From Octopus sinensis (Eukaryota), in NCBI RefSeq assembly GCF_006345805.1, contig NC_043002.1, positions 10,540,001 to 10,604,000 on the forward strand: a stretch of 64,000 nt of DNA, in the 5' to 3' direction. Positions 8,458 to 52,284 of the stretch are shown one piece after another (the stretch's first letter is position 1; the number at the start of each line of letters is the position of its first letter). The translations under genes were made by a program, and so were the position numbers. A model generated the notes under the pieces. It worked only from the letters and a program-made list of their open reading frames with translations, was not told the DNA's origin and ran no database searches.

Positions 8458-9239
8458 TTATATATACATATGTATGTATCTATATGTGTATGTATACGTG
8501 TATGTATATATACATTGTCTTAGATACACAATGACAGAATGCAGGAGATATTTCGTACTGAGGGCAAGAGTGCACGCAAATATCTGAATCATATTTCCTT
8601 CCACCTGATTGGCACCATGAAGCAAGTAAACGCTGGAAAGTTCTAAGTACGACGACTAATATGTAGACCAGATAAATAATAGTATTGAATGAATTCTGTA
8701 GGCCACACATGATTCGCAAGTTTCATAAATGATATACCAGATTTCTCGTGTCAATAGATACAGATCTCCTTAACAATGAATAATGTGTTGGCAGAATACC
8801 TAAATATATAACTAAATAACTTTCATTGACCGCTGGAAATAATACGGATTAGATCAAATGCAGCGCAGCATATTACAACGAATTTATCATTGTCAATTAT
8901 AAAACTGACATAGGATTCTCAACGGTTCACAGTTTATTACAGAAGTCTTAGAGTGTATTGTACACATTTCATATGAAAAGTACTTAACGTAACGCACATC
9001 CACACGCACATCTCTCAGCATAAACTATCATACACATGAGTGAGCATATACACAAGCTCGTATCAATACGTAACTACTGATATATATTATATAAATCGTA
9101 TATATTTACATAGATACCTATATACATACATACATATATATATAAGATCAGCAACAATTTAGATTCAAATGAATATGGTACTTAATTTAGATGCACCAGA
9201 ATTTTGAATGGTGTTACCCATAAAAATTTGCGGGATGAT

Positions 9240-9406
9240 TATAATCAAAAATAAGCAACAAGAATGACTCCGGTGATTTGGTACAATTGTTTCGTACTAA
9301 AACATTTTATTAAATTTTCGTACTACAACATTTTAATAAAATGTTGTAGTACGAAACAATTGTACCAAATCACTGGAGTCATTCTTGTTGCTTATTTGTG
9401 ATTATA
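9240..9406. repeat. Near-perfect palindrome (about 70-bp arms, small internal duplication)
   Basis: ATAAGCAACAAGAATGACTCCGGTGATTTGGTACAATTGTTTCGTACT ... AGTACGAAACAATTGTACCAAATCACTGGAGTCATTCTTGTTGCTTAT. Confidence 0.95.
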
Positions 9407-9427
9407 TATATATATATATATATATAT

Positions 9428-9562
9428 AATAAGCAACAAGGACATCCAAGGTAGTGTAGTACAATCGTTTCATGCTACTTAATTTAATTAAACAATATTT
9501 AATTAGATGAAGTAGCATGAAACGATTTTACTACACTACCTTGGATATCCTTGTTGCTTATT
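9428..9562. repeat. Near-perfect palindrome (about 55-bp arms)
   Basis: AATAAGCAACAAGGACATCCAAGGTAGTGTAGTACAATCGTTTCATGCTACTT ... AAGTAGCATGAAACGATTTTACTACACTACCTTGGATATCCTTGTTGCTTATT. Confidence 0.95.
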
Positions 9563-9600
9563 TTGATTATAATCACCCCATTTGATTTATATAGATAATA

Positions 9601-10272
9601 CACCTTTAGAACAAGAGAACGAGAAACCATGATGGTCCTCTGGAGGACACTTGTCCTAAGCCACTTTCACTATTGCTCTCAGTTATGGTCACCATCCAGT
9701 GTCAAGTTGATCACAGAGCTCGAGGCGATCCAGCGTAGCTACACGAAGAAGATAGCCTCTATGCAGAATGTAAGCTACTGGGAAAGACTCAAGAGATTAA
9801 AACTATATTCCTTGGAGCGTAGGCAGGAAAGATATGCCATAATATACATCTGGAAGATCCTGGAGGGACGTGTCCCAAACTTTGGCATTGAGATTTACAC
9901 AAATGCCAGAACTAGGCACTACTGCGTGGTGCCTGACTCCAAATTTGCCATCAAGATGTAGGACAAGATACTGTGAGGGCCTGGGCTTCAGAGGCCCACA
10001 GCTCTTCAATATCCTCCCGAAGAACCTGAGAGACCTGCATGGAGTGGATGCAGATGTCTTTAACATGAAACTGGATCTCTTCCTGTCAGGTGTCCCAGAT
10101 GAACGAACTTCACGGCAGGAGGTGCAGATGAGGGCAGCTGCATCGAACTCTCTCATGCACCAAATGGGAGTTGCTAAAAAGCTTTCGTGAAGTAAAACCA
10201 AGTAGCAACACCAAATGGCGGTGCCCCAGCATGGCCACAGCTCATGAGCTGAAACTAGAATCAATCAATCAA
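9601..10272 (+). mobile_element. 5'-truncated LINE of the same family, frameshifted near 9938
   Basis: LVLSHFHYCSQLWSP..LEAIQRSYTK..SYWERLKRLKLYSLERRQERY, continuing in a second frame GPQLFNILPKNLR..PDE; (TCAA)n tail. Confidence 0.9.
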
Positions 10273-10349
10273 AACCATACCAAATTCTTGTGCCTTGACT
10301 TAAGTACCAATTTTCATCTGAATCTAAATTTTGATGAACTTATATATAT

Positions 10350-10393
<44 letters not shown>

Positions 10394-51042: not shown

Positions 51043-51112
<70 letters not shown>

Positions 51113-51139
51113 ATAAGCAACAAGGATATCCAGAGGCAA

Positions 51140-51226
51140 TGCAATATGATCGTTTCATGCAACTGCATTTAATTCAACTATGCAATAATTACATCAACTT
51201 AAAATGCAGAGCAATCTTCAGCTGCA
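51140..51226 (-). ncRNA. Type I hammerhead ribozyme with extended stem II
   Basis: UGCAG CUGAAGA U UGCUCUGCAUUU...AAAUGCAGUUGCA U GAAAC GAUC AUA/UUGCA: stem I UGCAG/UUGCA, palindromic loop 3 (GAUC). The 3' tail runs into (TA)n. Confidence 0.7.
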
Positions 51227-52284
51227 CAAAGACATAGAATTTAATTAAGTTAGAACAGATGGACACATTAGTATAATTATACCTAAAATCTCCAAGAAGT
51301 TAAGGAGATAGACAAAGAACATGCTGTTCTTACTCTAACATAGAAGTTACTAAGCTTTTCAAGAAGATATACATTGTTACAGACTCTGCCTGTCACTGAT
51401 TTTTTTTTGTTTATATGAGGTCAATTTTTAATTTATAAACTAGTTTCTCAAAACCCTTGTATATCTAAGGCTGAGAGAACAGAGGGCAGTATATGTTAGG
51501 GTAGGGCGATGGGAGCAGACATACATCATAGTTGGTATAGTCATAAAAATCACGATTATTAGAAGCAATATCATGAGGTTTGGTAAAGGAAAGATTAAAA
51601 CAAGATGTTAGCTGACTATTAAGGGGGTGGCCCACTAGCAGACCATTGATAATGAAACAGGGAAGTCTTATCATGTAGAACTATAGTTAAATATTTTAAA
51701 CAATGTTGCTATATTGTATACAGTTAAAGTTTAGGGTTATTCAGAGGATTTATTAAGAAGAAAATTATAGCAAAAGGATAGATATTTATGAATACTTTTG
51801 AGTATATACCAAACTTTTACCATAATAGAGGGAGGGAAAGAAATTATATAGAAATAGTTTTATATTTATACAGTTTGTACACTTAAATACTAACTCATTA
51901 GATGGTTTCTGTGAATATTGATTAATTGGTATATACTGGTATTAACAAAGGAGTATTGAGGTAAAAGAACATGCTAATTATATAATAATAAAAATAAAAT
52001 TATAATCTAAGCAGATTTTTTTTATAAGTAGTGAATATACCAGTATAGTTTTATATATGCTAAGTACAAAAATTAGATTAATTTTATAAATAAATAAAGG
52101 CTGATTATAAAATAATAAAGAAATATAATAAAATAATCAAGTAAGGCAGAACACCATAGAAAAGGAAATAAAATAGCTTAATTACTAATACTATGGCAAT
52201 GTATATGTAGCTTATTAGCACCAATAGAGAAGAATTTTAGAAAAAGTATAATAATTTAATATAGGTTTAAGAAGTTATTATTAT

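What the first reader, a model, noticed from the sequence alone, without database searches (positions are those of the whole stretch)
9231..9580. Twin palindromes are hammerhead 3' halves folded back at ribozyme stem II
Seen: read outward from the centre, each palindrome arm is stem II 3' strand + GAAAC + 4-nt loop + GUA + tail ending CTTGTTGCTTATT (GTACGAAACAATTGTACC; GCATGAAACGATTGTACT). The second is homologous to the intact-looking HHR element at 51111-51226 (GCATGAAACGATCATATTGC..GGATATCCTTGTTGCTTATTTT). The CUGANGA strand is replaced by the mirror image. The two palindromes differ in sequence, flank one (TA)n tract, and their outer ends are also complementary. Inference: PLE cDNA snapped back on the long stem II and copied itself, making MITE-like hairpins with no transposase. 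These would be catalytically dead but form near-perfect dsRNA (Dicer or ADAR substrates) against the parent element. I know of no description of this route.
Basis: partly seen in the sequence, partly recalled or inferred. Interest (0 to 1): 0.85.

Follow-up and report, generated by a model that had tools for sequence, protein, structure and literature searches.

The report
Penelope retroelement stubs joined head-to-head
The two palindromes are the shortest head-to-head insertions of hammerhead-bearing Penelope-like retroelements in one TA repeat, and their two arms were likely copied separately from two fixed start sites and then joined, which would explain these elements' long-puzzling inverted ends.

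Summary
Both palindromes are real, and each arm is the 3' half of a hammerhead ribozyme from a Hydra-clade Penelope-like element (PLE). Parents with the complete ribozyme exist (664 and 26 exact matches). The palindromes are not symmetric MITEs: one arm ends at a fixed short site, the other runs about 100 nt further (the PLE 'tail'), and both abut (TA)n. They are the short end of a continuum of head-to-head insertions (92 and 391 loci). In 25 of 63 resolvable cases the tail-less arm reaches further into the parent than the tailed arm, so neither arm can simply be a copy of the other. All 20 two-armed insertions found without regard to layout pair one tailed with one tail-less end. Likely route: two cDNAs primed on opposite target strands, joined by microhomology. 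Stem II is a junction hotspot in one family (12 of 91, scan p 0.008) but not in the other (1 of 97). The window's own centres stop short of the stem II loop; fold-back appears only as a 15-nt patch. Inverted pLTRs, tails and a self-priming proposal are published; I found the pairing rule and arm statistics in none of six paper searches. dsRNA activity is untested.

The parts
9144..9315 (-). Palindrome 1, tailed arm: last 25 nt of stem II 3' strand, GAAAC, stem III, cleavage triplet, stem I 3' strand, then the ~97-nt tail (9144-9240) ending at (TA)n
   Evidence: 97.8% over 181 nt to ribozyme-complete copy L139; tail end matches the fixed long end
9316..9330 (.). 15-nt fold-back patch: self-copy of the tail-less arm from an 11-nt A/T micro-palindrome in the stem II 3' strand
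   Evidence: 9316-9335 pairs 20 of 20 with 9337-9356; DNA hairpin -18.6 kcal/mol, z -6.9; seen as direct repeat D7
9331..9406 (+). Palindrome 1, tail-less arm, ending at the fixed short site against (TA)n
   Evidence: 96% over 76 nt to L139; 72 of 76 complementary to the other arm
9403..9428 (.). (TA)n tract shared as target by the two separate insertions
   Evidence: sequence; TA run at 83 and 79 of 91 ends in family 1
9428..9496 (-). Palindrome 2, tail-less arm (reaches 25 nt upstream of GAAAC)
   Evidence: 94% over 67 nt to family 2 parent L101; breakpoint 25 versus 21, 1 nt inserted
9498..9601 (+). Palindrome 2, tailed arm (reaches 21 nt upstream of GAAAC) with the first part of the tail
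   Evidence: 92% over 110 nt to L101, alignment 9492-9601
9602..10270 (+). Later insertion into the tail: multicopy fragment ending in (ATCA)n, likely a LINE 3' end (label recalled)
   Evidence: splits the L101 match into 9492-9601 and 10271-10357; very high contig depth; no Pfam family
10271..10340 (+). Rest of the tail of palindrome 2, ending at (TA)n
   Evidence: 87.5% to L101 tail; gives inverted repeat I5 with the tail of palindrome 1
51108..52263 (-). Solo, tail-less, 5'-truncated 3' end of a sister family, with both core boxes of the ribozyme (about 51141-51225)
   Evidence: 2471 candidates, 40 scored, 90-95%; family homology extent; no inverted partner within 1.5 kb (L031)

Best explanation
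Each palindrome is a minimal head-to-head insertion of the 3' end of a Hydra-clade Penelope-like element, likely made when the element's enzyme nicked both strands of a TA repeat and primed two cDNAs from one source, one at the tail end and one about 100 nt upstream, and the two truncated ends were then likely joined by microhomology. Shown: parentage, two discrete ends, one of each per two-armed insertion, independent truncation of the arms, same subfamily on both arms, TA targets, a stem II junction peak in family 1 only. Inferred: double nicking and twin priming in this organism, use of one RNA or one source element, microhomology joining, and that the self-complementary stem II supplies the microhomology for the in-register class. 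In the window both pairs stopped within about 25 nt of GAAAC, so the CUGANGA strand was never copied; at palindrome 1 the tail-less cDNA likely folded back for 15 nt before joining. Two such insertions from different families landed in the same TA tract, back to back, and a later element split one tail.
For: Ends are bimodal: tail-less arm ends at offset 46-55 in 82 of 91, tailed arm at 142-149 in 81 of 91; 30 ribozyme-complete copies end at 46-53 (13) or 144-149 (17), none between. All 24 rows (20 distinct insertions) with an inverted partner, out of 86 rows examined, pair one tailed with one tail-less end. Tail-less arm longer by more than 10 nt in 25 of 63, tailed longer in 19, by more than 30 nt 15 versus 14; 12 of 24 versus 7 in family 2 and sister. 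L148: 3.2-kb ORF arm ends tail-less, the 735-bp inverted arm carries the tail; L304: 4.8-kb arm tail-less, 54-nt inverted stub is the tail end. Solo tail-less arms between two TA tracts (L117, L119). Subfamily sites agree between arms in 88, 86 and 79 of 91 versus 49-56 expected. Most junctions show 1-8 nt overlap or a few inserted bases. In vitro, an anole PLE cuts and extends both target strands, starts RT at two internal sites that bound the tail, and is predicted to dimerise (PMC11167929, parts 1-2 of 4 read).
Against: No intermediate was observed; everything is read from finished insertions. Arm lengths are more alike than chance (within 15 nt in 16 of 53 versus 7.8, p 0.002), which fold-back with small central loss would also give. 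Short fold-back patches do occur (window, L216, L228). Long perfect palindromes can lose their centres asymmetrically (general knowledge), which could mimic a longer tail-less arm. The survey was limited to spacers up to 500 nt and exact pattern matches; family 2 figures use the first 100 of 391 matches. The in vitro data come from a different clade with a 30-40 nt tail.
Confidence: 0.62

Rival explanations
1. One cDNA folds back at a hairpin and copies itself; the endonuclease then trims the copy at the short site, and later asymmetric deletion of the palindrome centre scrambles arm lengths.
For: Stem II peak in family 1 (12 of 91); stable cDNA hairpin for family 1 stem II, -11 kcal/mol, z -4.7; 20-of-20 fold-back hairpin at the centre of palindrome 1 and shorter ones in L216 and L228; excess of equal arm lengths; same-subfamily arms; loop on the tailed arm in 5 of 14.
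Against: Needs kilobase one-sided deletions for L148 and L304; symmetric distribution of which arm is longer (15 versus 14); loop on the tail-less arm in 9 of 14; solo tail-less insertions; no peak in family 2; the window's centres are short of the loop.
Confidence: 0.2
2. The short palindromes, above all the in-register class, are secondary: longer head-to-head insertions collapsed later by slippage deletion between the near-direct repeats that stem II creates on the two arms. This can coexist with twin priming.
For: 36 of 86 insertions keep the whole ribozyme on both arms and so carry these repeats; predicts either loop orientation, as seen; strongest in the family with the perfect 8-bp apical stem.
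Against: Does not explain the 11 of 91 spacers shorter than 55 nt or the window's two centres, one of which has a templated patch; no long and collapsed allele pair at one locus was seen or could be sought.
Confidence: 0.13
3. The palindromes are a self-propagating MITE or foldback family moved by a DNA transposase, or by RT as a hairpin unit.
For: More than a thousand candidate copies each, hairpin shape, TA flanks.
Against: Asymmetric ends; centres differ from locus to locus; arms are 92-98% identical to PLE 3' ends; palindromic copies are scattered over the tree of tailed arms, 21 label changes versus 19.8 shuffled, at least 5 forced by supported branches (89 rows, weak resolution).
Confidence: 0.03
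4. The palindromes are assembly or library fold-back artefacts.
For: No read or contig spanning this locus was recovered; the assembly has some adjacent duplicates (L172/L173).
Against: Arms differ by 5-6%, one tail is split by a later insertion, ends fall at two family-specific sites against TA, and hundreds of loci show the layout.
Confidence: 0.02

Closest known systems
Inverted-pLTR insertions of endonuclease-bearing PLEs (Adineta vaga Pen2/Pen2a/Pen3a, PMC3846280: passages and Discussion read; Fig. 2 legend of PMC8557442)
   Same: Head-to-head inverted 5'-truncated copy next to a direct copy; tail at only one end; palindromes at the junction; N-rich linker between RT and endonuclease.
   Different: Here the whole insertion shrinks to about 240 bp and is nearly all palindrome; the tail is about 96-100 nt rather than 30-40; that paper proposed self-priming on an antisense template and does not tie junctions to a ribozyme, whereas the arm statistics here favour two separately primed copies.
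Hydra clade of C-terminal-endonuclease PLEs (PMC8557442, section 11 and passages read)
   Same: RWK, DKT, CxCX5C linker, CxxC and CxH, no CCHH, hammerhead, (TA)n targets.
   Different: About 4.8 kb with an N-rich linker rather than under 3 kb; ribozyme stem II about 58 nt, outside the 7-17 nt spacer of that paper's core descriptor and unseen by Rfam; thousands of candidate copies.
PAc (Poseidon, Anolis) in vitro reaction (PMC11167929, parts 1-2 of 4 read)
   Same: Both target strands cut and extended, AT-rich target, two RT start sites bounding the tail, predicted dimer, ribozyme cleavage not needed for insertion.
   Different: Different clade, shorter tail lying inside the ORF (here it lies before the start codon); the parts read do not propose that one site is used on each strand to give inverted insertions.
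L1 twin priming (5' inversions; search listing and recall)
   Same: Two target nicks prime two cDNAs that are joined by microhomology into an inverted structure.
   Different: In L1 the two cDNAs copy different, non-overlapping RNA stretches from a variable second site (recalled); here both copy the same stretch from two fixed sites, hence a palindrome.
Non-LTR retrozymes (10.64898/2026.07.22.740005, part 1 of 5 read) and MITEs
   Same: Short, non-coding, PLE-derived or hairpin-shaped dispersed repeats.
   Different: Retrozymes are head-to-tail tandems with whole ribozymes; these are head-to-head and lack half the core. MITEs have symmetric ends and spread as a unit; these do neither.

Membership tests
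Hydra-clade PLE (parent elements) | Single ORF with RT then C-terminal GIY-YIG endonuclease, upstream of the ribozyme-bearing repeat | tested here: met
   L148, L300-L304; PF01541 E 6e-4, 20.4 bits, below the 22.6 cut-off; RT piece has no fitting Pfam match but 3765 relatives; family 2 ribozyme follows an endonuclease in L312
Hydra-clade PLE (parent elements) | RWK and DKT motifs | tested here: met
   Both in the near-full-length relative L304; DKT in 28 and RW[KR] in 18 of 40 long homologues. Not seen in families 1 and 2 themselves, whose fetched copies are 5'-truncated
Hydra-clade PLE (parent elements) | CxCX5C linker, CxxC and CxH, CCHH absent | tested here: met
   Read by eye in L148, L300, L302-L304, L312 against section 11 of PMC8557442
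Hydra-clade PLE (parent elements) | (TA)n targets | tested here: met
   83 and 79 of 91 ends
Hydra-clade PLE (parent elements) | Placement within Hydra in an RT tree with named references | not tested
   No named PLE proteins were available; supplements of PMC8557442 not opened
PLE inverted-pLTR insertion (the palindromes) | Inverted 5'-truncated copy head-to-head with a direct copy, tail at one end only | tested here: met
   Window; 20 of 20 distinct two-armed insertions; no second full tail in 91
Type I hammerhead ribozyme (parents) | CUGANGA and GAAA boxes, stems I-III, palindromic stem III, NUH site | tested here: met
   22 of 86 listed copies aligned: 92% of cells paired, 10 of 27 pairs with changes on both sides, 3 of 4 in stem I (related sequences inflate this). 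Base pair of stem II unpaired in 9 of 22
Type I hammerhead ribozyme (parents) | Rfam hammerhead model match | tested here: not met
   None for L135 at E up to 10 or among the listed window matches; the long stem II is the likely cause
Type I hammerhead ribozyme (parents) | Self-cleavage | not testable with these tools
   Needs an in vitro assay
Type I hammerhead ribozyme (the palindromes) | CUGANGA box present | tested here: not met
   None between 8114 and 11329
MITE | Symmetric terminal inverted repeats reaching both ends | tested here: not met
   One arm is about 100 nt longer
MITE | Spreads as one unit with a uniform interior | tested here: not met
   Spacers 14-499 nt, varied junctions; no clade
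MITE | Fixed target-site duplication | tested here: inconclusive
   Both ends lie in (TA)n, which hides any duplication
Non-LTR retrozyme | Head-to-tail tandem units each with a whole ribozyme | tested here: not met
   Head-to-head, half core

The most novel reading that the evidence does not exclude
PLE integration is an ordered double-priming reaction: one enzyme complex starts one cDNA at each of the two start sites, on opposite target strands, from one source RNA, so that the tail, the inverted pLTR and these short palindromes are all one mechanism, and the element's own hammerhead stem II serves as the splint that joins the two cDNA ends, seeding the genome with hundreds of ribozyme-dead hairpins.
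Probability: 0.4. Interest if true: 0.65.

Novelty: new variant of a known kind. Interest (0 to 1): 0.45.

Why it matters
How PLEs come to have inverted repeats and a one-sided tail is stated as unresolved in PMC8557442 and PMC11167929. This genome holds hundreds of short two-armed insertions whose ends and junctions can be read base by base. They give a rule (one tailed plus one tail-less end, same source, independent truncation) that links the two start sites seen in vitro to the inverted layout seen in genomes, and that an existing in vitro system can test directly. In practice, such hairpins would be mislabelled as MITEs or microRNA precursors (Rfam gives them sub-threshold microRNA matches), and the difference between arms could date each insertion as LTR pairs do. 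The two window palindromes themselves are likely inert fossils.

Tried and rejected
Rfam found no hammerhead in the window list or in an intact parent. Folding the 51 kb copy alone did not give the ribozyme fold (z +1.1). Pfam and PDB did not name the RT piece or six homologues. No inverted partner for the 51 kb element. Run search: no RNA holder listed, which says nothing about expression. Laying one raw DNA run (about 3 in 100 read) and three contig sets gave no record spanning the locus; one contig matched the unique left flank 8520-9106 with 4 differences, the rest were other family copies, so neither presence in reads nor editing was tested. Earlier scan notes: nothing in three look-ups. 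The first full-length candidates were duplicated segments, not PLE units (L147, L149). Rejected: MITE or DNA-transposon origin, retrozyme, one element spanning both palindromes (the arms belong to different families, 69-76% alike), and stem II loop as the general centre. The loop-orientation count caught 20 palindromes by regular expression, missed some, and includes one duplicated pair.

Full report
Observation. The two palindromes are present. Trimmed to their true arms they are 72 of 76 and 61 of 65 complementary, far beyond chance (z -20.8 for the second). Each arm, read outward, is the 3' half of a type I hammerhead, and the CUGANGA box is absent from the region. The genome (G000, 2.72 Gb, TA-rich animal; an octopus is my guess from recall, no call establishes it) holds 1617 and 1293 candidate relatives, 40 scored each.

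Anatomy. The fetched relatives show that the unit is not symmetric. One arm stops just after CTTGTTGCTTATTTTGA; the other continues about 100 nt; both run into (TA)n. In the window, palindrome 1 has its tail on the left (9144-9240) and palindrome 2 on the right, split by a 670-bp later insertion (9602-10270) and resuming at 10271-10340. The two belong to different families (69-76% alike).

Parents. Patterns for a complete ribozyme found 664 family 1 and 26 family 2 places, with 0 for the reversed controls. Palindrome 1 is 96-98% identical to L139 and palindrome 2 is 92-94% identical to L101. In 22 aligned copies from three families the core boxes are invariant and stems I-III covary (92% of cells paired, 10 of 27 pairs changed on both sides; relatedness inflates this). 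Stem II is about 58 nt long with an apical hairpin, perfect over 8 bp in family 1. Rfam does not see it. These ribozymes lie downstream of an RT plus GIY-YIG ORF (L148 for family 1, L312 for family 2). A near-full-length relative, L304, has ribozyme and tail before the start codon, RWK, DKT, an N-rich linker, CxCX5C, CxxC and CxH, and a second ribozyme at a tail-less 3' end. These are the features given for the Hydra clade in PMC8557442 (section 11). No tree with named references was made.

Where do the centres fall? A pattern blind to spacer length up to 500 nt found 92 head-to-head family 1 loci; all were analysed, one adjacent duplicate dropped. Spacers run from 14 to 499 nt; 23 of 91 are 66 nt or less. 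Of 86 with inserts of 20 nt or less, 36 keep the whole ribozyme on both arms, 19 on one, 31 on neither. There is a real peak in register with stem II: 12 of 91 at 55-66 nt against 2.8 expected (scan-corrected p 0.008). Family 2 with its sister family gave 391 loci; among the first 100 listed, 97 after dropping 3 duplicates, only 1 falls there (spacers estimated from coordinates). The window's own centres are not at the loop: arms stop 21-26 nt upstream of GAAAC, at A/T micro-palindromes, short of the loop at 30-32. Palindrome 1 carries a 15-nt patch that pairs 20 of 20 with its tail-less arm, a short fold-back; L216 and L228 show smaller ones away from the ribozyme.

Is one arm a copy of the other? 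A fold-back from the tailed cDNA can only give a tail-less arm that is shorter. Among 63 resolvable family 1 junctions the tail-less arm is longer by more than 10 nt in 25, the tailed arm in 19, and 19 are within 10 nt; beyond 30 nt it is 15 against 14. In 24 of 28 family 2 and sister loci (4 dropped for inserts over 20 nt) it is 12, 7 and 5. In L148 a 3.2-kb ORF arm ends tail-less and the 735-bp inverted arm has the tail; in L304 the tail is a 54-nt stub. Among 20 short palindromes caught, the loop lies on the tail-less arm in 9, on the tailed arm in 5 (two are one duplicated pair), and is lost in 6. Solo tail-less copies between two TA tracts exist (L117, L119). Yet the arms are coupled. Ends are sharply bimodal (82 of 91 at offsets 46-55, 81 of 91 at 142-149; the tailed side was required by the pattern; 13 and 17 of 30 unselected copies, none between). 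Of 86 rows chosen for a complete ribozyme or by similarity to the 51 kb copy, 9 had no ribozyme match, 5 could not be typed, 48 had no partner within 1.5 kb, and all 24 with a partner (20 distinct insertions) pair one tailed with one tail-less end. Subfamily-marking sites agree between arms in 88, 86 and 79 of 91 against 49-56 expected. Against my reading, arm lengths are more alike than chance (16 of 53 within 15 nt against 7.8, p 0.002), which fold-back with small central loss would also give, though a shared broken RNA end would too.

Not a MITE lineage. On a tree of 89 tailed arms (2 too short), the 22 palindromic copies need 21 label changes against 19.8 for shuffled labels, at least 5 forced by supported branches; resolution is poor. 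They arose many times.

Mechanism. Most likely two cDNAs are primed on opposite strands of a nicked TA tract, one from each start site, from one source, and their truncated ends are joined through short homology; stem II offers 8-12 bp of it in family 1. The double nick, the single source RNA and the joining step are inferred. PMC11167929 (parts 1-2 of 4) shows both strands cut and extended and two start sites bounding the tail for another PLE. Rivals: whole-arm fold-back with trimming and later central deletion (0.2), and later collapse of longer insertions at stem II (0.13), which I cannot separate from joining at insertion for the in-register class.

What is known. Inverted tail-less pLTRs, junction palindromes and a self-priming proposal are in PMC3846280 (passages and Discussion); the general layout is in PMC8557442 (passages); pairs of hammerheads on opposite strands 100-700 bp apart are noted in PMC4209133 (parts 1-2 of 4). 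PMC6962438 only counts hammerhead matches in a squid genome (passages); 10.64898/2026.07.22.740005 (part 1 of 5) treats tandem retrozymes. Six searches returned no listing that states the one-of-each rule or a junction hotspot at stem II; most subscription papers, including the early Penelope work, are outside the library, and no supplements were opened.

Function. The hairpins cannot self-cleave in cis. They would form about 65-75 bp of near-perfect duplex if transcribed, but no RNA data were obtained, and longer two-armed insertions are commoner and would give longer duplexes. No read spanning the locus was recovered; arm divergence, the nested insertion and the family-wide pattern make an artefact unlikely.

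Verdict. New variant of a known kind, interest 0.45, chiefly because the pairing rule makes an open mechanistic question testable.

Noticed in passing
window 9602-10270: Multicopy fragment ending in (ATCA)n inserted inside the tail of palindrome 2; likely a LINE 3' end (recalled label, no Pfam match). It is younger than the palindrome.
   Followed up: partly
L304 (G000:C15:17992300-17997800): Near-full-length Hydra-type PLE with ribozymes at both ends, tail before the start codon, and relatives with open frames of 700-800 codons (L300-L303); a candidate for the in vitro test.
   Followed up: partly
L148 1704-3430; L300-L304: Long asparagine-rich linker between RT and endonuclease, as described for rotifer PLEs; in L148 it holds nested inserts in the (AAT)n run.
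   Followed up: no
window 51141-51225; L091-L116, L031-L060: Most family 2 and sister ribozymes have U.U instead of G-C at the base of stem II (9 of 22 aligned rows unpaired) yet spread to thousands of candidate copies, which suggests cleavage is weak or dispensable.
   Followed up: partly
L216, L228, L225, L174, L157: Junction inserts are often copied from nearby sequence, direct or inverted, some as short fold-backs at A/T micro-palindromes, resembling polymerase-theta end joining (comparison recalled).
   Followed up: partly
family-wide: The tail is about 96-100 nt, against 30-40 nt in the papers read.
   Followed up: partly
L128, L300-L304, L317-L319: Further subfamilies with the same ribozyme layout and different stem II sequence; useful for testing whether the junction peak follows hairpin strength.
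   Followed up: no
G000 C4:41804809 and 41805144; C1:202374671 and 202374935; C3:15061805 and 15072627: Adjacent near-identical loci with the same junction and flanks: local duplications or assembly duplicates.
   Followed up: no
window 9274-9372, 9373-9449, 9449-9541: Rfam gives sub-threshold microRNA-precursor matches to these hairpins, a likely source of false annotations.
   Followed up: no
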